Assembly: GCA_051294905.1 (NCBI GenBank)
Contig: CM119371.1
Coordinates: 7,752,001 to 7,816,000 of the forward strand
From: Botryllus schlosseri
Lineage: Eukaryota
DNA length: 64,000 nt
Reading direction: 5' to 3'
The notes beneath the pieces were generated by a model. That model ran no database searches. It had not been told where the DNA came from and saw nothing but the letters and a program-made list of their open reading frames with translations. Both the position numbers and the translations under genes were made by a program. Shown one piece after another: positions 3,941 through 52,729 of this stretch (position 1 is its first letter; each line of letters begins with the position of its first letter).

Positions 3941-4099
3941 AGATTTCGTCGACGTTCATTGTGTTGGAAATTACTACTCCATCTGGAGCGAAAGAGATGA
4001 CAATCAGCCCCAAGAAGCAATCTGATAGCGAGCTTTCCCCAGGCAAAATGGAGCCAGGCCCAAACGAGACTACTGTCATTGCTACGGATGACACCGACG
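3941..4099 (+). CDS. Gene 1 ATG-bearing exon (ATG at 3997)
   Basis: Acceptor atttttgtag ends 3940; donor GACG|gtaaga at 4099. The ATG and KQSDSE motif are conserved in the paralogous exon at 52678-52829. Confidence 0.75.
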
Positions 4100-7000
4100 G
4101 TAAGACCTTGCATAGATATGATATCTGCAAGTTGAATTATAGACTAGAAAACGTAGGTATCCCACGTATTCGTAAAAGGTAGGGGTTGAGTTACTCCGTT
4201 ATCCCTCCGTGAGCACGAGACAGCAAAACGTACAGTCGTACACACCTTTCGGATGGATACTTAGTTCCTCTTTACGTTGCGTACCGTTTCCACTATGTTC
4301 AGTGTTATTCTCGAAGCTGGGAAAAATCAGGCATCTGAGTCAGAGGTCTCAAACTCAAATGTGCTCGCGGGCAAACTTCCCAGATTTTGATGACGCCGCG
4401 GGCCGCAGCATCAATAATATAGAGGTATTCAATGTCTTCGAAGTGGGCCTTATTTGACGGGATGGAATTAACCGACAGAAAGCGAGTCGACCCAGCAGAC
4501 TGACATTCCACACGCGCATCGCGAAAATTTGATTTAACATTATAACATTTTACGCCAGGCCTGAAAAAAATCACATTAATAAGTATTTGAAAAAAATTGT
4601 TGTACTTGGTAGAGAGTGAGCCTGATTTGTCAAAAATATGAGATATAGAGACCATTCGAGAGGACTACAGCTTCTTGCCATCATCAAAACTGTCGCGTTA
4701 AGATTATGCAGTTAGCGGACGTTTGACGTGCCACAACTATAGCTAGAATAATTTAGAATTAACAAATGATTGATCTGATGTCACAGCATTTGAGCAGTAT
4801 AGTCTGATCCAGGTATTAGGTATACTCCTGATAATTAGGCTATTGATCATGTCATTCCCTTAGTTGCGATGATGCAAGATTGACCTTCGAACGTTAGAAC
4901 AGATCAATAACAACAAATGTCCAATTGTCGAACAATACATTGGTGTTACAGCGGTGGAGCGTACCATTACGTTGCTCTCCACCAGTAAGTGACGGTAATA
5001 ACATGAATAAAAGGGGTCCAAGTTTTATTAAAAAATTTCTGAATTATTACTAAATCACACGACACGCGATTAGTTTGCTGCTTGCATTGCTTGTAACCAA
5101 GTCACTCGGTGTCAAGTCGAATCATATTCATTTGGTCACCAAGTCAGTACGAGTTCGAGCGAAAGGTCGAGTCTAAGTCACGATATTCTGTCACGATTCA
5201 GTGTTTTATCATGTAAATAGGCAATGTGACCTATCCGATCTTCCACCGCATGGTTGCTTTCGAAACTGATGTGTTAGTGAAGTTGAATGCGTAGTCTTTC
5301 GGATTTTGAAGCAATTTAAGAGTGAATTACAAGTTTTCAAATGAGAAAAAAGATATATGGCACCTAAATATTGTCATATAATTGAACATCCAAAATGTCG
5401 GCGCGGGCCGCGTGTTTGAGACTTCTGATCTGAGTGATGCGTAACCGCGTCGTGGCATGAGGATTGGAGTCTAATATAGTATCAACAGTTACCACATAAG
5501 GATGTGGATGATTGGGAAGTTCAAATATCTATTTTCGATGGAAATATGAATATTTTCGATGGAAATATGAAATATCATGCTAGTTACACATCACAGCAAA
5601 CTAAATTAGGTATCCTTCCGACCATGCCAATTTCATTGCGCTTCGTGGCACTGGTGTGAATTAATAACTTCGCGGAAATGTCTTTTGTACTACTGTGCGT
5701 AGCATATCAGCTTTTTGCAATATGTTTGGGTGTTGCAATAGGGCAGGGCTGGCCAACCTTTTCAGCCAAAGGGCCACATTCGAACGACGAAATATTGCGC
5801 GGGCCACTAGCCGCGCCAAGCGCGAAAATTTTTCGAAGTTCATAGCTCAATAATATTGTCACTTGACTATATTGCAGGCCTGCAGTATATCGCTAGGTTC
5901 AGTTCGCCAGGGCTAGACTATTCAGCGCCTGGACATATCAATTTCGAAAGCTTCGGCCAACATGCGTCAATCATTTTGTGCCTAGGTTTCATAGTCGACG
6001 GTCTTTCTGCGAGCGCAAACGCTAGGTCGCATATGTTTAACAACACTTTGTATCGTAATCGAGAATATAGTTAGACTCAATCTGATACATTAGGCGTTCT
6101 TTCATCTTCACAAAGGGGTAACAACATTAAAAGCAAAATATCGAATGACTACATGTTGCGCGAAGGCTGTGGAAATATTTACTTTTGATAACTTTATCGC
6201 AAATTCTTCTTCTTTGTAGTGTACGAAGATCTACCACCGATCACCAAAGTGTGACTGGCTCATGGAAATGCCAATGAGTAGTAACTGATATTTTGATCAT
6301 CACATCTTAAGTGTTGCGGCGAGACTATTCAATTTTTTGGTTGGCCTTGCAAGGTCACAATCTGCAATTCATTTTTTTATAACATTACCAAGTTCGTATA
6401 TTACCTCGCGGGCCACTCAAAACCTTCTCGCGGGCCACATGTGGCCCGCGGGCCACGGGTTAGCCGGCCCTGCAATAGGTGTAGAAAGTAACGACACGGC
6501 ACTGTAATTTCAGTACTCGATAATTTCGCCTGTCATTAAGTCCGCCTTGCATCAATAAAATCAATGCTCGCTAAGGATTTGCTCGATTCAGAGTATTCCA
6601 AGCATGATGCACAGCCCTGGTTACACGTTGAACATATTCCCATGCGAAATGTTTTCCCGAGTGTATTTCCATAAGCTAGAATGCTCGATTGTGATATTGA
6701 TGTCGCAAAAGTAGACTGCAGGACCCCACTGGGCTGGCTTTAATCACGCGGTATCAGTCGTGAAATCCGCACCAACTGTACAGACGCATGCGTAGTAGTG
6801 TTCTTGCATATCCGCATACACAGCGTCACTTCATCGATCAATGAGTTTCGACAGGTCCCAATTTCATCCTTGACTGCATATAGTACAGAAATTCTCGCCG
6901 CTGTGGATTAGCACTTTATATCATCCACATCATCTTGAATTGTCAGGGAAAAACTCCTGCGAGCTGAATGACCCAGAAGCCGTTGAGCTAGCCGTTGAAT

Positions 7001-10000
7001 TTGAGATGAAAGGCGACTCAGGGCCGCAAGACGTAACCTACGAAGTCTCGGCCGCACCGAAGGAAGAAGCTGGTAATGTGAATTAGTTGCTGGACTGAAA
7101 ATTGTTCAAGTAGGCTACTAAATCTGTTCAATTATTAAAACTGTTCCAACTATACTAACAATGCGCTCTTCCCCTTTTCTCGGTGTGGTGAATCTTAAAG
7201 TCGTTTCTGCGAACTCGTGCACCACGTATGTGTAATTGTGTATACCTGATGGAATTCAATAAAGTTAGTAGCGGATAACTAATACGTCCGCATCTTAACG
7301 CAGAGCTGCTCACGGCCAATTTAGAAAGCTGATCAGGAAAAATGTCAGCATCTTCGAACGTCACCCGCTGATGTAAATCGACGCCTTTGCGTAACAAGTT
7401 TGTTGTGAACTCTAGTTGTGAATTGTGCAGTGTGAACCCCTTGCATAGTTGGTTGAACAGTGCACAGCGGCTGGTGAGTATTGTATTAGTGGCACTGCGA
7501 TGTGTGTACACAAATATAGATGCGTTTACACTGCCAATCGTATCTACAAATCGGGACTGACGTTGCAGTTACCGAGTACTTTAACCGCGACCATGGACCT
7601 TCCTTTCTAGATACTATTCCTAATGAACCAAGAATGGATCAAATGGTTTCAGAGGGCGAGCTTGAACCCGTGGACACTGGGACAGATTGCGACGAAGAAT
7701 ATTTGAAATCGCAAAGTATTGACAGAGCCGAGCCGGCAGAGTACGGTATGACTGTGATTAACTGGCTTGTTCTAATCGGTTGCCGGTGAACTCGGCACTT
7801 GGTGAGTTCGGCCGCACAAACTCGGCAATTGATGATCTCGGCACTTGGTGAATTCGGCCCTCGGGAAATTTTGTAATGAAGTGTATTAACAGCTATTAAT
7901 ATGAATTAATAAACTAATAATAGTATTATCAAGTGATTCCTCAATCTTGTAAGGAGGTCAGGGCATCCGTTGATCACGCAGTTACGGCATGATTAGATCA
8001 CGGATTGCGTAGCCGCGGGAAATAACGCAGCGCTCATATACCGACCACGACCACGCGCGGTCTGCTTGGAATCGATGGCGTGAGTGACGGGCGTGTGTCG
8101 TACTGTCGTGTAAGTTTAGAGAAGATGGATCTTGGCGTTGTATGTGAGATGGGAGCTGTGGAAGATCAAGCGGCGCTTCTTCGTTTATCGATCACGACAA
8201 GCCAGTGTTCCTCATCAACAAATGTTTCGCATGACCACGTCAAAATAAATTAATTTTTGCATTTGGAGAGACGATTCCACTCTGGGGTTAGGGTGTCTCG
8301 ATAACAGGGTTGAGGGATGCCAAGATTACGAAATCTACCGCGAGTCACGACACGTTTAAATTTCCTTTTTGATACTGTTCATTAATATTAAATGCATTTC
8401 TAATGCGAAGGTGTTCTAGTGCCAATTCCTCCAAGGGACGAGTTCACCAAGTGAAGAGCGTCGCGTTATTTCCCGCGGTTACGCAATCTGTGATCTAATC
8501 ACGCCGTGACTGTGTGATCTACGCATGCCCTAACCCCCGTACAACATTGACAACCACTCAAAGTGCCAAGTTCCCCGGCAAACATTCCAGTAACCAATCA
8601 TGGCTACAAGATCTACCACGGCCGAATTCACCAAGTGCCGAGTTTGTGTGGCCGAATTCACCAAGTGCCGAGTTCACTGGTAATCGTTCTAATCTACGTG
8701 CACTAATCGGCTTCGTGATCGTGATATTGCCTCCCATGATAGCAAAATGAATAGAACGACGTGTTGGCCCGACGTCAAGAAACACTACGAACACTAAACT
8801 ATATCCGTTATACGCCTAAGCATATATATCGGTCAAGTCAGGCTAAAAACCAATTGACAAAATATTCGGCCATATCACGTGAATTTCCATTTGACTCGTA
8901 GTACAAAGATTGCAGTTCGTCAATTTTTAGGGGTGAGGAAGTATTGTCATTGAACGGTGGTATCCAGGAAAAGGTTCTATCACTTATTCCAGAAGCAGGA
9001 ATAACATTTTTGGTGGGGACTGGACTGAGTTGTGAACCGCTGGTTTACGCGAACGCTAAAACGGGTCGGATTGAGTAATCATGTCGACACTTTGCTCATA
9101 TCTTCAAAACCAAAACCAAAACCATACTGGTATAAGCGACATTTTTAGTAGTAGCGGAGGAAGGGGTGTGTCATGTGTTCTTGGATTCTGTATTAAATTG
9201 TGTGAACACATCTATTTACCGTGTTACATTGTTAGACACGATATAAAGAGCGTCTACACATTATCAACATGTTTGAGTGTTGCAATACGTCCAATTGACT
9301 TGAGATTTCAAGGCTTCCCATGGTGTAAAAAGTAACGACACGGCACTACAATTTCAGTACTCCATAATATCGCCCGTCATTACTCCGCCTCGAATCAATA
9401 AAATCAATGCCCGCTACGGATTTCGATTCAGAGTATTCCAAGCATGATGGGCAGCCCTAGTTACACTTCGAACTCATTTCCCTGTGAAATGTTTTCCGGG
9501 TGAATTTCTTTAAGCTAGAATGGTTGCTTGTGATATTGATGTCGTAAAAGTAGACTGCAGGACCCCACTTGGCTAGCTCTAATCACGCAGTATCAGTCGT
9601 CTAATCCGCACCACACCAACATTTGCTGACATTCGTAGCATAGTGTGCTTGCATAGCCGCATGAGCGGTGTCACTTTATTGATCAATGAGTCGCGATGTC
9701 CCTACATTGATCAATGAGTCGCGACAGGTCCCAATTGGATCCTGACTACGCCAATGTACGTGCGATGTACATAAGTACAGTAATTCTCGCCGCAATAGAC
9801 GTGAATTTGCAGTTTATATAATCCACCTAATCTTGGCTTGTCAGGGAAAGCCTGCGAGCTGAATGACGCAGAAGGCGTTCAGCTACCCGTTGAATTTGGG
9901 ATGAACGGCGGTTCAGGGCCGCCTGACGTAACCTACGAAGTCTCGGCTGCACCGAAGGAAAAACCTAGTAATGTGAAATTTAGTGAACGAAGTTGGTTGC

Positions 10001-13000
10001 TGGACAGCAAATTGTTGAAGTGGCTACTAAACCTGTTCAAGTATTAATGTTCCGAGTCCAAACTCTTCCATTTTTCTCGGTGTGGTGAATCCTGAAGTCG
10101 TTTTGGGCCAACTCGTGCACCATGTTTAAACGTAATGGCATTCAATAAAATTAGTAGCGGATAACAAAAATACGACAGCGTCTTAACGCAGAGCTGCTGC
10201 TCACGACCGAATTAGAAAGTTGATCAGTATATATGTCAGCATCTTCTAACGTCACTCGCTCGATGTAAATCGACGCTTTTGTGTAATAAGTTTATGAACC
10301 CTCGTATGCCATTGTGAACTGTGGACCCCATGCATAGTTTGGTGAACCGTGCACAGCGGCTATGAGCACCGTATTGCTGGCATTCAATGTGTGTCCATTA
10401 ATATAGATGCGTATACACTGCCAATCGTATCTGCGAATCCGTACTGACGTTGCAGTCACAGAGTGCTTTAACCTCTACCGCGGACCTTCCTTTCCAGAGA
10501 CTATTCCGAATGAACCAAGAAGGGATCAAATGGTTGCAGAGGGCGTGCTTGAACCCGAGGATACTGGGACAGATTGCGACGAAGAATCTGCGAAATCGCA
10601 AAGTATTGACAGAGTCGAACCGGCACCCAACGGTATGACTGTGATTAACTGGCTTGTTCTAATCAACGTGCGGTAAACAGCTTCGCGGTCGTGATATTGC
10701 CTCCATTATAGCAAAACGAATAGAACGACGTGTTGACCCGACGTTAAGAAACACTACGAACACCCAACTATCTCCCATATACGCCTAAGTATATCGGCCA
10801 AGTCAGGCAGGCTAAAAACCAATTGACATAATATTCCCGCCGTATGACGTGAATTTCCATTTGACGCGTAGTACAAAGATTGCAGTTCGTCAATTTTATT
10901 CGACGAAAGCCATATGGCTTACGTCAGAAAACTAGGGGCGGGAAGTATTTTCATTGAAGGGTGGTATCCAGGAAAACGTTCCGTCACATGTTCCAGAAGC
11001 GGGAATAACATTTTTAGTGCGGGCTGTTAGTTGTGGACCGCTGGTTTACGCGAAAGCGGGTCGGATTGAGTAATCAACGTTAGCACTTTGCTCACGTCTT
11101 CAAAACCAAAACCATACTGGTATAAGCGACATTTGTAGTTGTAGCGGATGGAGGGGTGTGTAATGTGTTCTTGGATTCTATATTAAATTTGGGTGAACAA
11201 ATCTATGTACCGTGTTGTATTGCTAGACAGGATATAATAGAGCGTCTACACCAGGGGTTCTCAGCCTTTTCTTGGCCGTGGCCCATTTTCCGGTCTTATA
11301 ATGTGCTGTGGCCCACCTCTTATCTTGGAGTCATAATCCTGTTCAATGCGTGGTAATCGACGGCGCCGATATGCCTATTTCTCTAAATTATGCGCATTTT
11401 TCTCTAAATTTGCTGATGATATTCAAATGTAGACCTTTCGGCTCATGAAATCGCTAAGCGTGACGAAAACTTTCAAGTCGAATAAATATCCTCCAACAAA
11501 CGACCAACGAAATAATCTTGATCCATTTCGAGTTCCCGCAATTGGGGGTTTGGGTGCAGCAGTTACGGCCCTGGTAGATCATAGGCCAGGCCTGGGCAAA
11601 GTGCGGCCCGCGGGCCAAATGCGGCCCGCGAAGCCATTCTGTGCGGTCCGCGAAAGGTTGCTTGGAATTCATAACATTAAACCTGCTCTTTGAATGTTGA
11701 TACGTGGACTAAAACCATAGGCTGTATCAACTAAACAGGAAATTCGTTTACTTTGAAGCCTGTTCGTGTTCATTAATATGCCACGATTACGCTGCCTACG
11801 TACCTCGCATCCGTAATCCAGATTCAAAATAAAGGCAATGTGGCAAAGTATGAGTAACAATTAAATTCACAAGAAATCACTATTTCCATATAGTTTACGT
11901 CAAACCTTCTTTGTTTCCATTGTCACATTATGCATTTTACGGGTACACGTATTTAAATTGTTACGTAAGGCGTTTCCAAATCCGTAATTCGAAAAACAAA
12001 TCAATCAGAGAGCGCGATTACTATATGACCCATAAAAGATGAACGGGCATGTCAAAAAGAGAAAGCCGAGAGCTGAAATTCAAAGATGGTTTAGAGCACT
12101 AAATTGTATACTGGAGTAAACTGGGTAAACCCACCCTGTTAGTTTTTGCCGGTACGATTCGGCGAATTCACACATGCACGGTCCCCGGCCACGATGTTTG
12201 GCCAGTAAGATTTTAATTATGACAAAAACACGAAACAATCGGTCAAGGGAGGGCGAATTTCAGAAAAACGTCAAACTTCGCTCAACATCAAGGCTATTTG
12301 AGCTGCACACTGCTCGGAATACAGCAACCAAGACTAGCTTTGTACTATCCCATATACATTTCAGTGCAGTGGTTCTCGAACTGAGGGGCGTGAATGCATC
12401 AGAAAGGTTAGGCGCGAAGCTGAAGTAAATGATATTGTTTTCGCGCTCCGCGAGATTTAACCTCAGAGTATGCTTTATTGCTCCGTGTATTCTCTGACTT
12501 AGATATTACAGAATTCTCTCGTCAACAACCATAACCTGCCATGCCGTCAAACTATCCGTCGGGATTGCTAGCATGCTGGTTGCTCTTGTTAATATGTTGT
12601 GATATCATGATATCCCTTTTAGACACGTGTCTAAAAAAAAGTTTGAGAACCACTGTTTTAGGATTGGGGTTTAAAGAAAGTTAAAATGTATCATGTTTAA
12701 CATTGTTTCAAATCATGAAGGCAAATAGATATTTTTTAAATTAATCACCACTTTCTCATTACCTAACATCAACACATTCACTGAGCAGCACTTATTATTT
12801 AATATGTTATTTAGAGATAAAATTAAAATTCGCTGGAGAATACAGCTCAAATTTTTCACTCGGCCCGCCAACGTATTTTCTACTTCTCATTTGGCCCGTG
12901 GAGGAAAATAATTGCCCACCCCTGTCATAGGCTAAAACTACTGTGTAAATTATGATTGTCCGTTGCTCCATTCGGGACGCGAAACACAATGATCAAATCA

Positions 13001-16000
13001 ACGCATCCACTTCCGTGATTGGGATTTTAGTTCCACTATTGTGGTGAATAATATATTCATGCTGGGCCAGCTTCAAACAATTCATTGGTGAATGGGGTAC
13101 TACAGAGAAGTGGAGAAAGATTTTATTATATGTATGCTGTACAATGCACGTTACATGTCTTGTACCAAACCAACTGAAGTTGCGATGTCAGAATATTCAA
13201 TCCAATGATACAATCAATTCATGTGACTCTTACATTGTGTACAATGATTTTCAGGGCGGACATTTTAAACCGACTCCAAAGATTGATGCGTTCCGCTAAA
13301 TCCTCAATCCATTACGATTCGTTGCGGTGGTGCAGTATACCTACACCAGAAGTTGCTAATAATTTGCCATTATAGCTATTTTTATCATACAATAATACGA
13401 CTCGCCTAAGAACAGTAAATCTATACATCGATTACACTTCATTCCGAGTTTATTGCACACCCTTTCAACGGCATACGACTTATGACTAGGGCTGGGCACA
13501 ATGATTCGAGTACTCGAATCTGAATCTAGTATTCATTTTATTGATTCGTGTCGAGTAGTAAAAGACGATGGTTTCGAGTACTGAAATCATACGCTCCTCG
13601 CCACTGAAAGTTAATCTATCAACGAGAATTATAGTTTCGATACTCATTTTCACTGTTGAAGACGTGAAACCTTGATTGGCCGTATCGTAACATACGAAAC
13701 ATATAGTACAAAGCTACAAACGCTACTGGAAATAGCACAGTTCCGAAATCATGATTATCCCAGAACATTGTCACCAAGTGCAATGAGATCGGTTTGGTTG
13801 AAAAAATACCAAAGTATCTTCAACGTGATGGATAAGAGGCATTATATTCTTTGTGGTCGCATAAAAGATACATGTTTGAACTTTAACATATTACAGTCTG
13901 TTATGACGTCATAATGAGTGATACTCGATTACTCGACTCGATTCGAAGCATAATACGTGATTCAGAATCGAATCACTCAGGTACTCGATTCTGCCCAGCC
14001 CTACTTATGACCCCGCCGTAATACTTGGTTACTTCAGCATTACCTTCCAGTTATTATATACTCGAAATTATTTTAGTTGCTGTTAGCCGTAGGTTGTCAT
14101 AGCCAGTGGAAAAAGCCGCCGTTTCTCCCTCCCGTTTTCGGCTAGTACATGCTGACTCCAAACGTGCTACTACATCTCATCAGAGTCGGATGCAAAGCTT
14201 CACGTAGCCTACGTATAATTAGATAATATGAATATATTTCTAGTGATTAACATAATAAATATAACTAAACTTACATTAATTCTATAATTTTCGAAATGAC
14301 TTTGTGACCCACCTCAAATGCTCCTGCGGCATACCCATCGAGAATCCCTGGTCTACACATTATAAACATGTTTGGGTGTTGCAATACGTCCGATTGACTA
14401 AGATTTCAAGACCTCCATATTGTAAAAAGTAACGACACGGCACTACAATTTCAGTACTCCATAATATCGCCTGTCATTACTACGCCTCGAATCAATAAAA
14501 TCAATGCCCTCTACGGATTTCGATTCAGAGTATTCCAAGCATGATGGGCAGCCCTAGTTACACTTCGAACTCATTTCCCTGCGAAATGTATTCCGAGTGG
14601 ATTTCCATAAGCTAGAATGCCTGATTGTGATATTGGTGTCGCGAAAGTAGACTGCAGGACTCCACTTGGCTGGCTCTAATCACGCGGTATCAGTCGTCAA
14701 ATCCGCACCAACTGTACAGACGCATGCGTAGCATAGTGTGCTTACATATCCTCATGCGCGGCGTCAGTTAATTGATCAATGAGTTTCGACAGGTCCCAAT
14801 TTCTTCCTTGACTACACATAGTAAAGAAATTCTCGCCGCTGTGGATTAGCACTTTATATGATCAACCTAATCTTGGATTGTCAGGGAAAAACTCCTGCGA
14901 GCTGAATGACGCAGAAGGCGTTGAGCTAGCCGTTGAATTTGATATGAAAGGCGACGCAGGGCCGCAAGACGTAACCTACGAAGTCTCGGCTGCACCGAAG
15001 GAAGAAGCTGGTAATGTGAAGTTAGTTGCTGGACAGAAATATGTTCAAATAGGCTACTAAACCTATTCAATTATTAAACCTGTTCCAACTACTAAATCCG
15101 CGCTCTTCCAATTTTCTCGGTGTGGTGAATCCTAAAGTCGTTTCTACGAACTCGTGCACTATGTATGTGTACGTAATGACATTCAGTAAAGTTAGTAGAG
15201 GATAACTAATACGTCAGCATCGTAACGCAGAACTGCTCACGACCGATTTAGAAAGCTGATCAGTAAAAAGGTCAGCATCTCCGAACGTCACTCGCTGAAT
15301 GTAAATCGACGCCTTTTCGTAAAAAGTTTGTTATGAACCCTCGCTGTGAACTGTGCATTCAGTGTGCACCCTATGCAGAGTAGGGTGAACCTTGCACAGC
15401 GGCTGATGAGTATTATATTCAGGGTTGCCATCGACGTGTCCCCAAAAATAAGGACAGTCGAGAAATTGGATTAGCATGAAAAAACGTTTTTGTACATACT
15501 TTGTATTTATAGGAGCCGTGGCATATCACATTCCATACTTTTCGCCAGAAACAATCTGCTACAGCAAGTCCTTGTTATTATATAGTGCTTCATGGATCTC
15601 ACGACAGCTCAGGTCTAGGTTCACCTTTACTTAGGGCATAAGCAGCACTTCGTCAGCCCCCCCCCCCAAAAAAAAAATGTTGGTCTTGGGCCTGCCCATA
15701 GGGTGATAAACCAAACTTCTTCAAATCGTTGTGATTAGAAGCGTCAACTAAGATGGAAAAGGCCATCAACCAAGTTTAGACAACATCATTTTTGAGCGCG
15801 TGGAGCAAGAACTCCAGTAACAATGCTTGAAGTCTTGGTCCTGGCCGAAGAAAACGTATTTGCGATGTTGGAATCGGGGAATATTGCTTTGAACAATTGT
15901 GATGTGCAATCGTTGGTGAGGAATGATTGCTGGTGTTTGACAGTATGGAATGCCCAGGTACCCTCAGCAGCAGCTGCCTTGTAGTCTGTGGTCGTTGATG

Positions 16001-19000
16001 CCGATCGACTTGTGAAAAGATTATCAATGTGAGTTGAAATAGCGGGCTTTGCCCATAGCCTCCAGGTTAATGTCACAATTGCAGATATCGCAATGTGCGT
16101 AACACTCGTCTTTACGCATGTTCATTTTAACTAATCAGAGTTAGCCTTATTAGTAGCTAAAACTATATGCGCGAGTGCAATATAATTTGGATAAATTTAT
16201 CAATGAATTAGCTTTATTACTTTTAACCAATGTGTAGACCGCGCCTTTTTCACTACGCAATAAATGTTGCCTTTCCCACAGCTTGAGCTTATTCTGCTGT
16301 AGATCAAACAGCATGAACCTGGTGGTACAGCTGTTTACTGCTAAAATGACGTCCGCTGCGGTAGCTTGGTACAGACGAAACTGCCCTAACTATATCACCA
16401 CATCGAAGACAAATCTTGTGGTGCATACGTCACGAGAGTTCCTTTCATTTATGATGTCATAAAATCTCAACGCAAAAGCATAATTTGAGAATATTTTGCA
16501 ACACAGATACCAGAGGAAAACGATCGAAGTTCGGTAGTGGTTGAAAATAAGACAAAATAAGGACGCAAGTCGAAAATAACGACATTTCTTAGAAATAAGG
16601 ACAGTTGAGTTTTCTAAGACGTAGCCCTTCAAAATAAGGACAAATCTTGGAAATAAGGACGGTATGGCAACCCTGATTATATTGGTGGCATTGCGATGTG
16701 TCTCCATCAATATAGATGCGTTTACACTGCCAATCGTATCTACAAACCTGTACTGACATTGCAGTTACCGAGTGCTTTAACCGCTACCATGGACCTTCCT
16801 TTGTAGATACTATTCCGAGTGAACCAAGAAAGGCTCGAATGAATTCAGAGGGCGTGCTTGAACCCGTGGATACTGGGACAGATTGCGACGAAGAATCTTC
16901 GAAATCGCAAAGTATTGACAGAGTCGAGCCGGCAGCGAACGGTATGACTGTGATTAACTGGCTTGTTCTAATCAACGTGTGCTTATGAGCTTCATGATCG
17001 TGATATTGCCCATCATTATAGCAAAATGAATAGGGCGACGTGTGGACCCTACGTTAAGAAACACGACGAAGACCAAATTATCTCCCATATACGCCCAAGT
17101 ATATCGGCCAAGTCAGGCTAAAAACCAATTGCCAAAATATTTCCGCCATATGTCGTGAATTTCCATTTGACGCGTAGTACAAAGATTTCAGTTCGTCAAT
17201 TTTATACGATGAAAACCATGGCTTACGTCAGCAAACTGGGGTGGGAAGTATTGTCATTGATGGATGGTATCCAGGAAAACGTTCTATCACAAATCCCAAA
17301 AGCAGGAATAGCATTTTTGGTGGGGGCCATTAGTTGTGGACCGCTGGTTTACGCGAAAGCGGGTCGGATTGAGTAATCAATGTCAGCACTTTGCTCACGT
17401 CTTCAAAACCAAAACCATACTGGTATACGCGGCATTTGTAGTTGTAGCGGATGGAGGGGGGGTGTGTCATGTGTTCTTGGATTTTATATTAAATTCGGGT
17501 GAACACATCTATGTGCCGTGTTGCCTTGATAGACACGATATAATAGAGTGTCTACACATTATCGCGTGTAACATCATCCATGTTTATTAGTTGGCTCCGG
17601 CGTAATCGCAGTGATGTTACAAACATTAAGTCACATTTATCAAATTTAAATTCTGTTACAGACGAATCGCCTCCTGAAAACGAGGACGTCAGGGAATCTG
17701 AATTCCAGGAACTTCCAGGCGACTGCAAGACAGATTTCAAGGAACCCAACGACAGCAGACCGGACACGCCGAAGGAAACTTATAGCGAAGTTGCTGCGGC
17801 GAGAGACCAAAGTAAGTTGTTACTCAATGTCAATCACGCTTCAGTAGCTAACGTAGGCTATATATGGAAGTTCCTCCAGGCTATTACCATGTAATAGTAA
17901 ACACTGCCGCTCCAGAAGGCCAGCTAGTAATGGGACGAAGGCCATCACAGTGGTTATCGAACGTTCTTCAGTGCTACTGAATTTTGTATTCACTACGCTC
18001 AAGCGGCCCGAGCGTCACAGATTGAAAAAATAGCATCCTGCGTTCTTTGGGATAGAAAAAGTCCTGACAACCAGTAGTAGCGCGATCCGTTGATTTATTA
18101 CAAAAACATCATTTAATCAGTGTCAATCTTGTCATCCAAACACCGAGTTCGCTATCTTCAACCCGTATCAATGCGCAATGCGTACATTAAAAGTGATTTT
18201 GAAGCCTTTTTTAGTCGCGTAAGAAATTTTCCAAGGTCTCGGATTCCTAAAATCTCGAACAGAAATGATTCTGCAAAAACCCCCATCAAACAAACCGTAC
18301 CGACGCCCTTAACATCAGAAAGATAGTCGTTACTTACACAACGCCTCTCACGTTTCCTACGTATGACCCCACGCTAGTGCTCCAATAGAAAAACCGAAGG
18401 CCAGGAAAACTTCACTTGGCATTGACCAAATTTCATAATACCAGGGTAGGCACAATTTCCATGGTTGACAAATATTCTAGTGAAAACATGTCTACGCCAG
18501 CCATTCCTTACGTAATACCTGACACAATGGCCTTGGAAACGTAAATACCAGGCGTAATAGTGACCCCGCATGAACAAATTTCTTATACTGCAAGAAATTC
18601 AGCTGATTTTAGCGCTGCAGATTTTATGCAAAGTTGGAGATCCCTGAGACGCGCGATTTCCTATTCTGCTCTTTATTATTATTATTATTATAAGTAAAAA
18701 TCGTGATAGTAGCGCTTATCACGGCACAGGTTTTGTGCGCCACTTCTATACTTGTTTTTACAATGCATTTGCATTATCCAAATATATATAGCATCGCTCA
18801 GTTCTATGGGTATACCAATATAATATATAAGGAGCTAGCCGACAATATACAAACACGACATTTGTTTATACAAATAATGAATATACAACATGTATTAGCT
18901 ATACTGTATAAGTCGTCCCGAAGATATCACGAACTGTACAACATTATCCAATATCCAACGTCTTTCAACTCCCAATTTATTCGGCTCACTCGCGCAGCAT

Positions 19001-22000
19001 GATGTAGTTGTATCCTTTGATGTTGACATCTCACACAATGTAACAAAAACTGCTCTACAGATTCTTCTGCATTACATTGCTGACATAGTGGAGTCTCAGA
19101 ACAACGGATCTTATGCAGATGTCGATTCAGTCTGCAATGGCCACTTCTTAATCTCAGTAGAATTACGTCCCTTCGCCATGTTCCAATTCTGTTCTTTAAT
19201 GAGTGCTGTTTTGACACAAATTTATACCCTCTGCAACCCATGTTTCGGTGGTGGCGACCTATACATTAAAAACTACTGCTTTATCTTTCCGGCGAAATGT
19301 ACAATGACAAAACGTAAGCGTGCATTTCTAGGTCAACGTAACGCTCATCCTTGTTACAGAGATTTCCGTAAATCGCCAATTCGCTGCATTCGCGAACTTT
19401 AGTATTATCTTTCCGGAACGTATCCACCCACATTTATTGGCTCGAAGAAATAGTACTTTGCTCCGCGATTTGACGAATATTCGACTTCATAATCCTAAGT
19501 TTTCGCGTGAACAGAGGTGGCCAAGCTCGCATTTGTGACAAGCATTTTGCCGAACCGGAAGAAGCACCGTTGTGAAACCAGTCAAAATATTTTTTAACTT
19601 TGGATTGTGACAGAGGTTTGCAAGATGTCTGATGCAAACAACGAGAAAACCGAGGCCAAACTAAAGAAGACGGTTGAAGACGAATCGGGAGGCACGCAGG
19701 ATGACCATGTTGATGATCCGACTAATTCTTGTGGTAAGTGGTGCGGCATCACCATCTGACATTGTACGGACGTACAGTCGTACACCCATTGGAATCCGTC
19801 GATATATACGCACCTGTTCAATGGTTTGAATTGCATATTCAAGTTAGGTATTTTGCAAATGCAAATTAGTGACCCTATGGATCCTAATAAAAGGCCTGGA
19901 GATTACTAAATAATTGAACTTTCCGAGGTATGATATGGATTCACGTGCCGAAGCTAATCTGTCTCTCAAATTTACATCAGTATTAGTCGAATTCGGATTT
20001 AGAGAAAGTCCGATTGTTCAAGTGCAAAGTTGTGGCATAGTAAGCTATATCATTTTCATTTTTAATCTGAACCATGCGTAGGGCCTATGCTACTTATGCG
20101 TGGTACATAAATAGACAGGCTTACAAACAGGCTTCACAGTAAACGGCTTTACCGTTTACTCCTTACAGCCTATGGTGCTGAGGTATTATGAATGAACGAT
20201 GGTATCCATTAAATCTAGTGATTGCAATTCTAACTGGAATAAAATATCATAACGAATTAATGCGGTCAATAATATCGGTTCTTGTTAATATTGCATGTAT
20301 TCCGACGCACATTTGTACCAGAGTGTTCGGCGCCTGTCGATCAGTTAGGGCCAACATGTCGTCGCTGACTATCCTCGGGTGCTCTCCTATTTGCCGACAA
20401 TGCATATGTCTGAGTGTCTATGGGCGTGCATTAGAAAACAGACGGTACTTTAAAACATGTAGGAAACAACGTTTAAACAATGCCTTTTGAAAAAACGATT
20501 ATTTCAAAACGTTGTGTTATGATGCCACAGTTGTTTGAATGCTTCCGAAAAACATGCATGCTCTAAGCCCAAGGACGATTTTCACCCAGTGTAGTCGACG
20601 TATACGGTGACAGTTGTTTGAATACTTTCGAAAAACATGCATGCTCCAAGCCCAAGGACGATTTTCACCCAGTGCAGTCGACGTATACAATATGGGGGTA
20701 GATATAGATCATTGGTACGGAAGGAGTGTGCGGATGATGACCAGATTGACTACCGAGCGCCCACGGGCCGTAAAAATGCTGCATATCGATGGTCTATTTA
20801 TGGCAGTGGTCGGAGGCTCTTCGTCGAAGCCATATTTACCTTATATTTTCAATTTTCAGTCGCGAACCACTGTGACGTCACAATTGAAAATTCGTTACCC
20901 ATGGCTAAAAAATCACAAACAAAATCAATAACAAACATGTTGAACTTGTCTGTTTAGACTTTAATTTTGTTGTAAATTAAATCCTATGTAGGTGCGTATA
21001 CACGGGCTAGGAGATAGCTGGGGCCTAAAAGCCAGCGCCGCGGGCTGCACACCACTATTGCCTTGGACATCCCAACGGCTATAATTGATACCGGGAATGT
21101 TCCGTTCTCCCATAATTGTTGATAAACTCAATACTGTATATTATAGGTGTATCTTTTAATTCGGGATGGCTACTAAAGCCCAAGAAATCTAGAGGTACAT
21201 AATCGTGAGAAGCGCGAAAACAGTTCCAAGTTGAATCAAACCGCATGGAAATAAATCTACTTGAGGATATGTGATTATTTCGGTTGTCAACATCCCAAAT
21301 TTCGCGGTCAGGCTATTCAACCGTTTCGTTGAGAATTTAGTGTGAACACATCTACGCAAAGTTTCGCACTGCCAGACACGTGCGACTTTGCTGTGACAAG
21401 AAACGGTGCGTCTACAAATCTTGCCATGTAACGTCTTCCGTGTTGACTATGGTAGCTCTGCAAACTGCGGTATCGCCGCTGTGATGCTGTAAACAATGAT
21501 TGACCTTTCATGAAATTTATTTTGTGTCACAGATGGATTGCATCATGTATATGAGGAGATCAGCGATTCTGGATCCCAGAAAATTCCGCATGACTGCAAG
21601 AAGCGATTGAAGAAATCCATCGAGCGCAAACCAGGAAAGCCACAGAAAATGAAAGGTTGCTATGGCTGAAGTCACGCCACTTCTCGATATTCATTTCTGT
21701 GGTCCACGCTAGAGCTCTCTAATGAAACAGCTGTCAACCAGACCTTACTAGATATAATACCCAATTTCTTAAGCTTCAAGTTCAAAAGCCACTGTCCACG
21801 AATACCTTGTGATTCGGCTCACTGATCGTATCCATTGTTCTTGTCGTATCCGCGAGACGAATTGTCGAGTTGCAATCCAAATTTTTTATGCAAAATATAA
21901 ACTGTTCAGCTGACATTTATGAAAACATTTACTCGTCTCTAAGAGAACCCCATTTGTGAAGCACGTTTAACTCTGTGATATTCAGTACTGTACTCAGTAC

Positions 22001-23491
22001 TGTACTCTTGCTGCACAGAGTTTTTCAAGATGTCTGAGATGTTCAAGTTGTCTTTAGACGCAAACCCGAAGAAAACCAAGGCGATCGAAGACAAACCAGG
22101 AAAGGACGACCATGGTCAGTGTTGATTTCATTTCCGTATCGTAACTCTTTATCTTGCATTGCCCACCAGCATTGTATATTGCATCGATTGAAATGCGTCA
22201 ATATGCACGCACAGAATAGATAGAATTGATATCCACATGCCCGGTATGTTCTAGAATCGACATCAAAGCTCACTTTAATAGTTATCATCTAATTCAGTGG
22301 TCAGTCAATCAGTGGTACATAACCTTTTTTGTCTTTGCCAGTCAAGACCTTACAGACCCCGAATAATTCTAGTTAAAATGTATCTTAATTATCCTACAAC
22401 CGTCATCAGTCATCAGTCTTCGTGCAAATGTTGACTTCAAGTTCATAACAGTAAGCGGAATCCGACGTTTGTCGTGCAAGGCAAAGGAGTCTGCATGTCT
22501 GAAGCAAGTATTATAATACATGGTCTTGTCTTGGAATACCGCGCCTTCGAAGGGATATGAACGAGAACCGAAAATGCCATTCAAAAATATAGGGGGAGGC
22601 GAAGGGAAGCGTAACAGTTCCCACAACGATTTTATGCATGATCGCAACACGAGACATGCATGACATTAAGAAACAGATTTTTCAATGAACATGTCCCGTC
22701 CAGCCTATCGATTTCTGGTCAACAGCCCATATCGAATCGTGAAATCGCGGTTACGTCTATAACAGCAAAATACGAATTCCTATGGCGCAGGTTTCAACAC
22801 CTGAGACCTACTAGGTAAATACTTCTGTGTAGAATCATTTTCAAGTGACGGAATGTTCACAAATATGAGACCGACAGCTTTAGATGCAGAAAAATTGTGC
22901 AAACATTACGGGGTTACAAGGTTATACCCTTTCTAAAGTAGAAAGTAGTTTGAGGATCGGATATGTTTGCGTTGCTTCCACGAGTAAAATTATTGCCGTA
23001 AAGGCGAGGGTTCATGTTTTCCGCAGTAGAAAATACTGTAGACCCTATAATTTTAATTGGTAGATCACCTTCCAGTGACTAGGGCCCCTGATCGGGCACC
23101 ACTGGAATAAATGGTAGAAGCGGCATCGATGGTGAAATTATACGTATCGCTCTCGATATTATGAATCTAAAGTGGCGTGCTTGAGTCCCGCCCGATAGGA
23201 CGTGGGATTCGCGAGTTCGACTGATTAGGCAACTGTTGTGTAGTCTTGCCGGTTTTAACAATCCCTTTGACGTCTGGACTGTCAATTTTAGATACTCGGA
23301 AGCCGAATCCGACCAATGCGAAGGCCGAGAAGAAGCCTAAAACCTGTATCGAGATAGTGTGGGCGAATATGAACGAAGAGGAAATAATATTGGCTTTTCT
23401 CACAATCTTCTTATTCGTGTTGTTGACGGGTTTTCTTATCTATGCCACGGTAATTGAAATCATGCGGGTGGAAACCGAAGAAAGTGGCTGA
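3997..23491 (+). CDS. Gene 1: unrecognised ~523-aa acidic, probably disordered protein with a single C-terminal transmembrane helix (tail-anchored topology); 12 coding exons
   Basis: Coding exons 3997-4099, 6947-7072, 7611-7745, 9845-9967, 10498-10632, 14885-15010, 16807-16941, 17662-17811, 19614-19733, 21533-21655, 22019-22114, 23292-23491. All have AG/GT boundaries and every intron is phase 1. All internal exon lengths are multiples of 3 (126,135,123,135,126,135,150,120,123,96), there are no stops, and the total is 1572 nt. Starts MTISPKKQSDSELSPG; ends EEEIILAFLTIFLFVLLTGFLIYATVIEIMRVETEESG*. No family recognised. Exon chaining is inferred without transcript data. Confidence 0.75.
4341..5427. 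mobile_element. hAT (Buster/Charlie-like) MITE
   Basis: TIR CAGAGGTCTCAAAC/GTTTGAGACTTCTG; GCGGGCC subterminal motifs; perfect TSD atctgagt. Confidence 0.9.
5744..6472. mobile_element. hAT (Buster/Charlie-like) MITE
   Basis: TIR CAGGGCTGGCCAACC/GGTTAGCCGGCCCTG; TSD caataggg/caataggt; absent from tandem units 2 and 3. Confidence 0.9.
6947..7072 (+). CDS. Gene 1 exon A1 (GKNSCELNDPEAVELAVEFEMKGDSGPQDVTYEVSAAPKEEA)
   Basis: ttgtcag| ... |gtaatg; 126 nt, phase 1-1; conserved in three tandem units. Confidence 0.8.
7611..7745 (+). CDS. Gene 1 exon B1 (DTIPNEPRMDQMVSEGELEPVDTGTDCDEEYLKSQSIDRAEPAEY)
   Basis: ccttcctttctag| ... |gtatga; 135 nt, phase 1-1. Confidence 0.8.
7778..8685. mobile_element. 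Mutator-like (MULE) non-autonomous element
   Basis: G-starting TIRs built of AACTCGGCACTTGGTGA repeats; second internal inverted pair (~7960-8030 / ~8464-8530); 9-bp TSD gttctaatc, present once at the empty sites in units 2 and 3. Confidence 0.85.
9845..9967 (+). CDS. Gene 1 exon A2
   Basis: ttgtcag| ... |gtaatg; 123 nt. Differs from A1/A3 by an in-frame 3-nt deletion, which supports coding status. Confidence 0.8.
10498..10632 (+). CDS. Gene 1 exon B2
   Basis: ccttcctttccag| ... |gtatga; 135 nt, phase 1-1. Confidence 0.8.
11587..12924. mobile_element. Nested hAT MITE (itself containing a CAGTGGTTCTC...GAGAACCACTG element at 12367-12655)
   Basis: TIR CAGGCCTGGGCAA/TTGCCCACCCCTG; perfect TSD tcataggc. 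Confidence 0.88.
13487..14003. mobile_element. Nested hAT MITE with ACTCGA/TTCGA subterminal repeats
   Basis: TIR TAGGGCTGGGCA/TGCCCAGCCCTA; perfect TSD cttatgac; related ends at ~26375-26455 and ~62730-62805. Confidence 0.9.
14885..15010 (+). CDS. Gene 1 exon A3
   Basis: ttgtcag| ... |gtaatg; 126 nt, phase 1-1. Confidence 0.8.
15420..16675 (-). mobile_element. Internally deleted hAT transposon with transposase relic
   Basis: TIR CAGGGTTGCCA/TGGCAACCCTG; AAATAAGGAC subterminal repeats; perfect TSD attatatt. Minus strand 16110-15720 reads YAHCDICNCDINL (BED-like finger), AAEGTWAFHTVKHQQSF...IFPDSNIANTFSSARTKT...VLAP, then FSILVDASNH (first catalytic Asp), broken by frameshifts. Confidence 0.9.
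16807..16941 (+). CDS. Gene 1 exon B3
   Basis: ccttcctttgtag| ... |gtatga; 135 nt, phase 1-1. Confidence 0.8.
17662..17811 (+). CDS. Gene 1 exon C (DESPPENEDVRESEFQELPGDCKTDFKEPNDSRPDTPKETYSEVAAARDQ)
   Basis: ttctgttacag| ... |gtaagt; 150 nt, phase 1-1. Confidence 0.8.
18673..19240 (-). mobile_element. 5'-truncated non-LTR retrotransposon (I-group LINE) 3' end
   Basis: ORF 18927..19241 has RLRSGHCRLNRHLHKI..SETPLCQQCNAEESVEQFLLHC, the C-terminal CCHC knuckle region of I-group ORF2, followed by a 3' UTR and (TAA)n tail at 18673-18691. Confidence 0.85.
19614..19733 (+). CDS. Gene 1 exon D (KVCKMSDANNEKTEAKLKKTVEDESGGTQDDHVDDPTNSC)
   Basis: ttgtgacag| ... |gtaagt; 120 nt, phase 1-1; homologous to 61859-61975. 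Confidence 0.8.
20528..20688. repeat. Local direct tandem duplication, 83-bp period, 2 copies
   Basis: cagttgtttgaat...gtcgacgtatac at 20528-20605 and 20611-20688 with few mismatches. Confidence 0.9.
21533..21655 (+). CDS. Gene 1 exon E (DGLHHVYEEISDSGSQKIPHDCKKRLKKSIERKPGKPQKMK)
   Basis: ttattttgtgtcacag| ... AAAG|gttgct (weaker donor); 123 nt, phase 1-1. Confidence 0.7.
22019..22114 (+). CDS. Gene 1 exon F (EFFKMSEMFKLSLDANPKKTKAIEDKPGKDDH)
   Basis: tcttgctgcacag| ... |gtcagt; 96 nt, phase 1-1; resembles exon D. Confidence 0.75.
23292..23491 (+). CDS. Gene 1 terminal exon with transmembrane helix and stop
   Basis: caattttag| acceptor, phase 1; ~25-residue hydrophobic run IILAFLTIFLFVLLTGFLIYATVI; TGA at 23489-23491. 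Confidence 0.75.
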
Positions 23492-52677: not shown

Positions 52678-52729
52678 TTTTACGACGTTGATCGTGTTGG
52701 AAAAGACTAGTCCGACAGAAGCAGAAGAG

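What the first reader, a model, noticed from the sequence alone, without database searches (positions are those of the whole stretch)
5722..17562. Triplicated two-exon cassette whose copies differ almost only by amino-acid-changing substitutions
Hand count excluding split codons. Unit 2 vs unit 3: exon A has 10 changed codons, all non-synonymous, plus an in-frame codon deletion; exon B has 9 non-synonymous and 1 synonymous. Unit 1 vs unit 3: exon A 4:1, exon B 11:2. Splice sites and frame are preserved in all six exons, while the introns accumulate arbitrary indels. Invariant cores DVTYEVSAAPKE and DTGTDCDEE stand out. Inference: diversifying selection or fully relaxed sequence constraint with the frame retained, as seen in gamete-recognition and immune/allorecognition proteins.
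Basis: partly seen in the sequence, partly recalled or inferred. Interest (0 to 1): 0.7.

Follow-up and report, generated by a model that had tools for sequence, protein, structure and literature searches.

The report
Recently triplicated exon pair, drifting neutrally
A pair of small coding exons in an expressed sea-squirt-type gene for an acidic, apparently unstructured protein has recently been copied three times in a row, and the copies change at the same pace as the surrounding non-coding DNA, so this is drift with the reading frame kept, not an arms race.

Summary
Three tandem units (6478-9265, 9252-11251, 14351-17563) each hold exon A (126/123/126 nt) and exon B (135 nt). All six have AG/GT sites and are phase 1-1.

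The diversifying-selection reading is not supported.
- Pairwise dN/dS is 1.2-1.7 but rests on only 3-6 synonymous changes.
- Against the aligned introns, non-synonymous changes are 33 observed versus 33.2 expected. Synonymous changes are 6 versus 11.4, P=0.06.
- What selection does show is frame retention: 1 in-frame indel versus 6.1 expected (P=0.016), and 0 frameshifts versus 4.9 expected (P=0.008).

The exons belong to a real gene.
- RNA reads splice B3 to a downstream exon at 16941|17662.
- Two paralogs about 320 kb away have the same exon order with a single A-B pair.
- The inferred product is 470 aa, pI 4.35, hydrophilic throughout, with one C-terminal membrane segment.
- No Pfam family and no relative in the public protein sets searched.

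Verdict: an ordinary recent exon-pair triplication in a lineage-restricted gene. The scan has not noted this sequence on other DNA.

The parts
3941..4099 (+). Exon U: probable first coding exon (ATG at 3997, phase-1 donor at 4099), preceded by sequence conserved with the paralogs
   Evidence: DNA and protein similarity to the U-like exons of the paralogs. The donor is GTAAGA. Its splice to A1 was not seen in reads.
6478..9265 (+). Cassette unit 1
   Evidence: Self-BLAST and repeat families.
6947..7072 (+). Exon A1, 126 nt, phase 1-1
   Evidence: Alignment, splice sites and translation. Run X7 has RNA depth 0.35/0.40 in the bin 6502-7168.
7611..7745 (+). Exon B1, 135 nt, phase 1-1
   Evidence: An X1 contig covers 7610-7772 with 0 mismatches.
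7831..8685 (.). 855-bp dispersed repeat inserted in unit 1 only
   Evidence: About 93% identity to many copies; 1271 first-look candidates. Internal inverted arms.
9252..11251 (+). Cassette unit 2 (no large insertion; about 2.0 kb, the basic unit length)
9845..9967 (+). Exon A2, 123 nt (one codon shorter), phase 1-1
   Evidence: Closest of the three A exons to the paralog A exons. X7 depth is near zero in its bin.
10498..10632 (+). Exon B2, 135 nt, phase 1-1
   Evidence: X7 depth is 0.61/0.55 in the bin 10504-11170.
11252..14350 (.). Nested transposon block between units 2 and 3, flanked by the 8-bp direct repeat GTCTACAC
   Evidence: The pieces match separate dispersed families. The flanking repeat is read from the alignments.
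14351..17563 (+). Cassette unit 3
14885..15010 (+). Exon A3, 126 nt, phase 1-1
15420..16680 (.). Two dispersed repeats of about 600 bp each, inserted in the A-B intron of unit 3 only
16807..16941 (+). Exon B3, 135 nt, phase 1-1; spliced to exon C in RNA
   Evidence: Joint 16940->17661, GT..AG (cut +1): one X1 contig (depth 11.1) and 2 X7 reads.
17662..17811 (+). Exon C, 150 nt, phase 1-1 (acidic; ends ...ETYSEVAAARDQ)
   Evidence: A C-like exon is colinear in paralog L007 at 6718-6864.
21533..21655 (+). Exon D, 123 nt, phase 1-1 (contains HHVYEEI)
   Evidence: Sequence. Joint 21653->22056, GT..AG (cut +2): 12 X9 reads, 2 X7 reads and one X1 contig. Its link to exon C is inferred from phase only.
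22058..22114 (+). Exon E, 57 nt, phase 1-1
23292..23491 (+). Inferred terminal exon: phase-1 acceptor, one hydrophobic segment, ends ...ESG then stop
   Evidence: Sequence. The homologous exon in the paralog is L008 819-1060. Hydropathy peaks at 2.96 at residues 436-454 of 470. Not covered by the reads laid.

Best explanation
A segment of about 2 kb holding two symmetrical (phase 1-1) exons, together 261 nt or 87 codons, was recently duplicated twice in tandem inside an expressed, lineage-restricted gene. Intron divergence between the units is about 12-14% raw (13-18% K2P by block).

The inferred gene runs U - (A-B)x3 - C - D - E - terminal exon. Its product is about 470 aa, acidic (pI 4.35) and hydrophilic throughout, with a single hydrophobic segment 16 residues from the C-terminus. 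That is the build of a tail-anchored membrane protein with a long, probably disordered cytosolic arm. The triplication supplies 260 of the 470 residues.

Because every internal exon is phase 1-1, any number of copies stays in frame. After the duplication the copies changed at the neutral rate at amino-acid-changing sites. Selection removed frame-breaking indels and kept the splice sites. In other words, length, frame and general acidic character are kept and most individual residues are not, as is usual for disordered repeat regions.

Shown: the triplication, the intact frames and splice sites, the rates, the B3->C and D->E splices, and the paralog architecture.
Inferred: inclusion of all six exons in one mRNA, the U->A1, C->D and E->terminal joins, disorder, tail-anchoring, and any function.
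For: Structure.

Rates:
- Raw divergence, exon vs intron: 0.120 vs 0.141 (units 1-2), 0.073 vs 0.118 (1-3), 0.105 vs 0.129 (2-3).
- Variable columns: 38 of 258 in exons versus 283 of 1529 in introns.
- Using the intron substitution spectrum on the exon codons, non-synonymous changes are 33 observed versus 33.2 expected. Synonymous changes are 6 versus 11.4. About 2.1 stop gains are expected and none is seen (P=0.12).

Frame retention: 40 intron indel events in 1718 columns against 1 in 261 exon columns. Expected 6.1, P(<=1)=0.016. Expected frameshifts 4.9, P(0)=0.008.

Real coding exons:
- The B3->C joint is at exactly the predicted bases, and the D->E joint is also seen.
- Ten, then eleven, exons join with no stop.
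- Paralogs L007 and L008 keep U, A, B and C (and one the terminal exon) in the same order and phase. Outside these exons and a short stretch upstream of U, the matches between the loci were dispersed repeats.

Relaxation after copying: the two paralogs differ with dN/dS 0.54 (Sd 15, Nd 28). The cassette N:S of 33:6 departs from that value (P=0.0013) but not from 1 (P=0.097).

Character of the protein: pI 4.35. D+E is 24.5% and the charge-hydropathy point lies on the disordered side (computed on the first ten exons). No hydrophobic window occurs outside residues 436-454.
Against: - The point estimates of dN/dS are all above 1 (1.18, 1.50, 1.74). With three short sequences the power to detect modest positive selection at a few sites is very low.
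- Only one junction touching the cassette (B3->C) was seen. One search lists 15 joints and says 23 more are not shown.
- X7 depth is about 0.75-1.2 in the bins holding A1, B1 and B2, but 0.06 and 0.09 in the bins holding A2 and A3. Some copies may therefore be skipped.
- An X1 contig runs from B1 27 nt into the intron, so part of the signal is unspliced RNA or DNA.
- Similarity between units is mosaic: the 5' half of unit 3 is closest to unit 1 and its 3' half is closest to unit 2. Gene conversion could therefore distort the exon/intron comparisons.
- Constraint is not uniform. The A1 and A3 lineages have 5 changes against 13.4 expected (P=0.0085).
- Disorder and tail-anchoring rest on composition and hydropathy only.
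Confidence: 0.65

Rival explanations
1. Diversifying (positive) selection drives amino-acid change between the cassette copies, as in recognition proteins.
For: Pairwise dN/dS is 1.18-1.74. Changed codons run 21:4, 15:3 and 20:1 non-synonymous to synonymous. Synonymous changes are about half the neutral expectation, 6 versus 11.4. A transcript contig from another individual carries three differences in A3, and an in-frame 3-nt deletion plus a substitution in exon C.
Against: Non-synonymous change equals the intron rate: 33 versus 33.2. The excess over 1 comes from few synonymous changes and is not significant (P about 0.10). About 78% of sites are non-synonymous, so a ratio of roughly 3:1 is the neutral expectation. 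The product has no signal peptide-like segment or extracellular-type domain. Family-level dN/dS is 0.54 between the two paralogs, and about 0.5-0.9 between the window gene and the paralogs.
Confidence: 0.1
2. Only part of the array is used. One or more of the copies (A2 and A3 are the candidates) are skipped or alternatively spliced exons that drift as non-coding DNA, and their open frames are partly luck.
For: X7 depth is 0.06 and 0.09 in the bins holding A2 and A3, against 0.75-1.2 for the bins holding A1, B1 and B2. The branch separating A2 from A1 and A3 has 12 changes versus 8.4 expected. The chance of no stop arising is 0.12 even under neutrality. All exons are phase 1-1, so skipping any of them keeps the frame.
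Against: Zero frameshifting indels in all six exons against 4.9 expected (P=0.008). All twelve splice dinucleotides are intact. A2 is the copy closest to the paralog exons, so most of that branch's change probably fell on the ancestor of A1 and A3. The read depth is only a few reads per exon.
Confidence: 0.2
3. The cassette multiplies a functional short motif. This could be the Tyr-containing DVTYEVSAAPKE or the acidic DTGTDCDEE. The arm would then work as a membrane-tethered adaptor whose number of docking sites was tripled.
For: Both cores are identical in the three copies. The downstream exons carry ETYSEV and VYEEI. A review of Botryllus histocompatibility describes BHF as a membrane-associated disordered protein with Y-x-x-I/L motifs (PMC12065747, passages seen).
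Against: Invariant runs of the same length occur in the introns. The Tyr is Cys in both paralogs (DAVCEV, AVVCEV), and DTGTDCDEE corresponds to ITEAVSDEG and ITGAVSDEE there. YEVS does not fit Y-x-x-I/L/V.
Confidence: 0.1

Closest known systems
Tandem exon duplication that makes internal protein repeats (general phenomenon; the literature is recalled, not read here)
   Same: Adjacent homologous exons lie in homologous intron context. They have the same phase, a length that is a multiple of three and intact splice sites, and the product is an in-frame repeat.
   Different: A pair of exons is copied, not one. The copies show no detectable constraint on most residues. Inclusion of every copy in the mRNA is not shown.
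The gene's own paralogs at G000:C1:8070501-8090500 (loci L007, L008), unannotated
   Same: Same exon order U-A-B-C (and a terminal membrane-segment exon), same phases and the same acidic character.
   Different: Each paralog has a single A-B pair. Amino-acid identity is about 40-58% over the aligned exon parts. The Tyr of the cassette core is Cys in both.
Rapidly evolving repeat-bearing recognition proteins (e.g. abalone VERL; ascidian self-sterility and allorecognition genes; recalled)
   Same: Repeated modules whose differences are mostly amino-acid changes.
   Different: dN does not exceed the neutral rate. The inferred topology is cytosolic and tail-anchored, with no extracellular domain. 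No polymorphism survey was possible.
BHF of Botryllus schlosseri and LAT-type adaptors (PMC12065747, passages)
   Same: The product is largely disordered by composition, membrane-associated, lacks a signal peptide and carries a few Tyr motifs.
   Different: No sequence relation could be tested. BHF is described as anchored through three Cys in its first 50 residues, whereas this protein has one Cys there (residue 39) and instead a C-terminal hydrophobic segment. BHF is itself reported as showing no strong positive selection.

Membership tests
Tandem (intragenic) exon duplication | Two or more adjacent exons that are homologous, with homologous flanking intron | tested here: met
   Three units share 79-91% identity by BLAST, including the introns.
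Tandem (intragenic) exon duplication | Copies keep splice sites and a frame-neutral phase and length | tested here: met
   All six exons have AG/GT, are phase 1-1, and are 126/135/123/135/126/135 nt long.
Tandem (intragenic) exon duplication | Copies are included in mature mRNA | tested here: inconclusive
   Only the B3->C joint was seen. Depth is low over A1, B1 and B2 and near zero over A2 and A3. 23 joints were not displayed.
Positively selected recognition protein | dN significantly greater than dS | tested here: not met
   dN/dS is 1.18-1.74 with Sd of 3-6. The N:S of 33:6 against neutrality gives P=0.097.
Positively selected recognition protein | dN above the local neutral (intron) rate | tested here: not met
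   33 observed versus 33.2 expected.
Positively selected recognition protein | Secreted or surface-exposed variable domain; high allelic polymorphism | tested here: inconclusive
   There is no hydrophobic N-terminal segment and the only hydrophobic window is at residues 436-454 of 470, which argues against exposure of the cassette. Polymorphism could not be surveyed.
Tail-anchored membrane protein | A single transmembrane segment near the C-terminus and no signal peptide | tested here: met
   The 19-residue hydropathy window peaks at 2.96 at residues 436-454 of 470, and elsewhere reaches at most -0.01. This rests on an inferred E->terminal exon join.
Tail-anchored membrane protein | Post-translational membrane insertion with a cytosolic N-terminus | not testable with these tools
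   Needs expression and localisation experiments.
Any named protein family | Significant match to a curated profile or to a known protein | tested here: not met
   Pfam: nothing above cut-off for 136 window ORFs or for 8 exon peptides (6 from this gene, 2 from its paralogs). Three word-based searches found no hit at E<=10. A profile of the B-type exons found 0 hits in 1.84 billion representatives.

The most novel reading that the evidence does not exclude
The gene belongs to a so far undescribed, lineage-restricted family of membrane-tethered, acidic disordered proteins clustered on one chromosome. In this family exon-pair copy number is the evolving trait. The triplication would triple a Tyr-containing and an acidic docking motif on a cytosolic arm. 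The family would then be a tunable signalling scaffold, comparable in logic to BHF or LAT, with copy number or isoform choice differing between individuals.
Probability: 0.1. Interest if true: 0.6.

Novelty: new member of a known kind. Interest (0 to 1): 0.27.

Why it matters
The main value is as a calibrated negative. A striking ratio of amino-acid-changing to silent differences between exon copies is what neutrality predicts when about 78% of sites are non-synonymous. The adjacent introns give the yardstick that shows it here.

The case is also a clean, datable example of how a phase 1-1 exon pair can more than double the length of a disordered protein arm without breaking the gene.

It also brings to light an unannotated gene family with no detectable relatives. 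That family could be followed up if its members prove polymorphic in copy number.

Tried and rejected
- Public RNA holders: no RNA holder was listed for the stretch. Raw RNA runs of the same species label were laid instead.
- Pfam scan of 136 window ORFs of 75 aa or more: only two sub-threshold hits, DUF4387 (838-1188) and 7tm_1 (37327-37623).
- Pfam scan of 60 ORFs in the 30 kb upstream: nothing above cut-off.
- A 155-aa upstream ORF (L005:3797-4261) looked like a candidate extracellular exon. Its C-terminal two thirds match about 20 degenerate dispersed copies full of stops, so it was dropped as repeat-derived.
- Word-based protein searches with exon B3, exon A3 and a five-sequence A alignment, 'longer' proteins only: no hit at E<=10.
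- Profile search of the B-type exons against 1.84 billion representatives: 0 hits. These queries are only 41-44 residues long, so distant relatives could be missed.
- Searching the window's genome with an alignment was not accepted. Single paralog exons found only each other, so the family size is a lower bound.
- Earlier scan notes hold nothing near this place or like this sequence.
- The idea that the locus is one of the Botryllus allorecognition genes was considered. FcoR proteins are type I Ig-superfamily receptors (PMC12582321, passages), and BHF differs in its anchoring. No link was found.
- A simple unequal-crossover history does not fit the mosaic similarities, so the order of the duplications is left open.
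Full report
WHAT IS THERE

The window lies in a 495-Mb, 219-contig eukaryotic assembly. Earlier notes of this scan on the same genome describe tunicate-type genes.

A self-comparison of 4000-20000 shows three head-to-tail units: 6478-9265, 9252-11251 and 14351-17563. Nothing between 5722 and 6477 is repeated. Unit 2 is about 2.0 kb, which is the basic unit length.

The other sizes come from insertions.
- An 855-bp dispersed repeat lies at 7831-8685 in unit 1.
- Two repeats of about 600 bp each lie at 15420-16680 in unit 3.
- A 3.1-kb block of nested repeats lies between units 2 and 3 at 11252-14350. It is flanked by the direct repeat GTCTACAC (read).
- Each insertion is private to one unit and belongs to a family with more than a thousand first-look candidates. 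The array is therefore real and older than these insertions.
- The cassette is found nowhere else in the assembly.

THE EXONS

Alignment of the units and translation define six exons.
- A1 6947-7072, B1 7611-7745.
- A2 9845-9967, B2 10498-10632.
- A3 14885-15010, B3 16807-16941.

All six have AG acceptors and GT donors (gtaatg after A, gtatga after B) and are phase 1-1.
- Units 2 vs 3: exon A 10:0 plus a deleted codon; exon B 9:1.
- Units 1 vs 3: exon A 4:1; exon B 11:2.

IS IT A GENE?

Four lines of evidence say yes.

(1) Splicing.
- Reads of one public RNA run (X7, 2 reads) and one contig of an older run (X1, depth 11.1) join 16941 to 17662 across a GT..AG intron.
- That is exactly the B3 donor and the acceptor of a 150-nt phase 1-1 exon C, which I had predicted from the sequence.
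- A second GT..AG joint, 21655|22058, links two more phase 1-1 exons, D and E. It is seen in 12 X9 reads, 2 X7 reads and one X1 contig.
- All 12 X9 reads have the first mate on the minus strand, which fits a plus-strand RNA in the usual stranded library.

(2) Paralogs.
- Two paralogs about 320 kb away on the same contig (L007, L008) carry, in the same order and phase, a U-like first coding exon, one A-like exon, one B-like exon and a C-like exon.
- Between the window gene and these paralogs, the matches outside these exons and a short stretch upstream of U were dispersed repeats.
- The exons have therefore been kept as coding sequence over a synonymous distance of about 0.5-0.9.

(3) Open frame.
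- Joining ATG 3997 through U, the six cassette exons, C, D, E and a terminal exon (23292-23491) gives 470 codons with no internal stop.
- The terminal exon is inferred. It has a phase-1 acceptor, a hydrophobic segment and an ESG-stop ending, and a homolog sits at the matching place in the paralog.

(4) Another individual.
- The X1 transcript contig has an in-frame 3-nt deletion in exon C.

Not shown are the joins U->A1, those inside the array, C->D and E->terminal.
- One search lists 15 joints and states that 23 more are not displayed.
- X7 depth is about 0.75-1.2 in the bins holding A1, B1 and B2, 0.76 for the exon C bin, and zero in unique intron bins.
- It is only 0.06 and 0.09 in the bins holding A2 and A3.
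- An X1 contig runs from B1 27 nt into its intron.
- Some copies may therefore be skipped or retained. Because all exons are phase 1-1, any combination stays in frame.

THE SELECTION QUESTION

Nei-Gojobori dN/dS is 1.18 (units 1-2), 1.50 (1-3) and 1.74 (2-3), with only 6, 3 and 4 synonymous differences.

The aligned introns serve as the yardstick.
- They give 1529 ungapped three-way columns.
- Raw divergence, exon vs intron, is 0.120 vs 0.141, 0.073 vs 0.118 and 0.105 vs 0.129.
- Variable columns are 38 of 258 in exons against 283 of 1529 in introns.

I polarised changes by majority and applied the intron substitution spectrum to the exon codons.
- Non-synonymous: 33.2 expected, 33 observed.
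- Synonymous: 11.4 expected, 6 observed (P=0.064).
- Stop gains: 2.1 expected, 0 observed (P=0.12).

Amino-acid-changing sites therefore evolve at the intron rate. dN/dS exceeds 1 only because a few synonymous changes are missing, and that is not significant (P about 0.10).

What does depart from neutrality is frame retention.
- There are 40 indel events in 1718 intron columns (sizes 1-28 nt, 8 of them multiples of three).
- There is one 3-nt event in 261 exon columns.
- Expected 6.1, P(<=1)=0.016. Expected frameshifts 4.9, P(0)=0.008.

Constraint is uneven.
- The A1 and A3 lineages carry 5 changes where 13.4 are expected (P=0.0085).
- A1 vs A3 differ at 5/126 positions against 100/865 in their flanking intron (Fisher P=0.008).
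- The three B lineages are near neutral (20 versus 24 expected).
- The branch separating A2 from A1 and A3 has 12 versus 8.4 expected.
- A2 is the copy closest to the paralogs, so much of that change probably fell on the common ancestor of A1 and A3.

The two paralogs differ from each other with dN/dS 0.54 (Sd 15, Nd 28).
- The cassette N:S of 33:6 differs from that value (P=0.0013) but not from 1.
- That is what relaxed constraint after internal duplication would give.

THE 'INVARIANT CORES'

Both cores are present in all three copies, but they are not exceptional.
- Invariant nucleotide runs in the exons are 25, 23, 23 and 17 nt.
- Intron runs are 27, 24, 20 and 19 nt, and the longest run (35 nt) covers the exon B donor and 32 nt of intron.
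- In the paralogs the first core reads DAVCEVPIAPDE or AVVCEVPTAPNE, with Tyr replaced by Cys. The second reads ITEAVSDEG or ITGAVSDEE.

WHAT THE PROTEIN LOOKS LIKE

- 470 aa, pI 4.35.
- On the first ten exons (404 aa): D+E 24.5%, Pro 9.4%, GRAVY -1.13. The charge-hydropathy point lies on the disordered side.
- No hydrophobic window occurs anywhere except residues 436-454, where the 19-residue mean is 2.96. That segment is 16 residues from the end.
- This is the build of a tail-anchored protein with a long cytosolic disordered arm. The cassette supplies 260 of its residues.
- No Pfam model reaches its cut-off.
- Three word-based searches of 5.8 billion clusters gave nothing, and a profile search of 1.84 billion representatives gave nothing.
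- The queries were single exons of 41-44 residues, so this shows no close relative, not that none exists.

HISTORY

- Intron distances put the triplication (about 0.12-0.18 K2P by block) after the split of the two paralogs (dS 0.23) and long after the split from them (dS 0.5-0.9).
- Unit 3 resembles unit 1 in its 5' half. In its 3' half it resembles unit 2, mainly through shared indels.
- A single unequal crossover does not produce this pattern, so recombination or gene conversion between units is likely. The order of events is open.

COMPARISON WITH KNOWN THINGS

- The phenomenon is ordinary tandem exon duplication producing an internal repeat, followed by relaxed constraint in a disordered region. 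This is general knowledge, recalled.
- I read passages of two Botryllus papers.
 - BHF is a membrane-associated disordered protein with Y-x-x-I/L motifs. It is anchored through N-terminal cysteines and is reported as not under strong positive selection (PMC12065747).
 - FcoR proteins are type I Ig-superfamily receptors (PMC12582321).
 - Neither matches this gene's build. No sequence comparison was possible.
- Another note of this scan on the same genome reports a protein built by repeated copying of an exon pair (e1-7804093). I did not check it.

VERDICT

- This is a recent, ordinary exon-pair triplication in a real, weakly expressed, lineage-restricted gene.
- Interest is low to moderate.

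Noticed in passing
G000:C1:8070501-8090500 (L007 580-728, 1820-1927, 5406-5528, 6718-6864; L008 819-1060, 5271-5425, 6473-6580, 8689-8823): Two tandem paralogs of the cassette gene lie about 14.7 kb apart. Each has a single A-B pair, and they differ from each other with dS 0.23, dN 0.12.
   Followed up: yes
window 52682-52825 (+); also G000:C1:8694850-8694911 (-): Further U-like first exons (...EEMASRFQKQSDSE...) suggest more family members, one of them starting inside this window. No A/B/C-like exons were recognised downstream of it.
   Followed up: partly
window 7743-7777, 10630-10664, 16939-16973: A 35-nt stretch identical in all three units covers the exon B donor and 32 nt of intron. If the donor is not used, the frame reads on as GMTVINWLVLI... 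and then stops. In the paralogs the same read-through frame stays open for 65-75 codons and is similar between them. This could be an alternative hydrophobic C-terminus or a splicing element. By length alone it is not significant.
   Followed up: partly
window 17718 and 17780; 14943, 14955, 14956: A transcript contig of run X1 (another individual) differs from the assembly by a substitution and an in-frame 3-nt deletion in exon C. It also differs by three substitutions in exon A3.
   Followed up: no
window 11252-14350: One dispersed element (pieces 11252-11586, 12925-13486 and 14003-14350) is interrupted by two other repeats. The whole block is flanked by the 8-bp direct repeat GTCTACAC, as a hAT-type insertion would leave.
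   Followed up: partly
window 3515-3537 and 15657-15677: Many RNA reads join these two places on opposite strands and carry poly-G, poly-C or poly-A loose ends. This is probably a library artefact on a short repeat shared by both places.
   Followed up: no
L005:3797-4261 and L006:652-1119 (about 9-16 kb upstream of the window): A tandem duplication about 6.85 kb apart holds a 155-codon open frame (86% identical copy, one stop). Its C-terminal part matches degenerate dispersed copies.
   Followed up: partly
window 37327-37623 (+): A sub-threshold match to the rhodopsin-family 7TM profile (21.1 bits, cut-off 30.5). This may be an exon of a neighbouring receptor gene.
   Followed up: no
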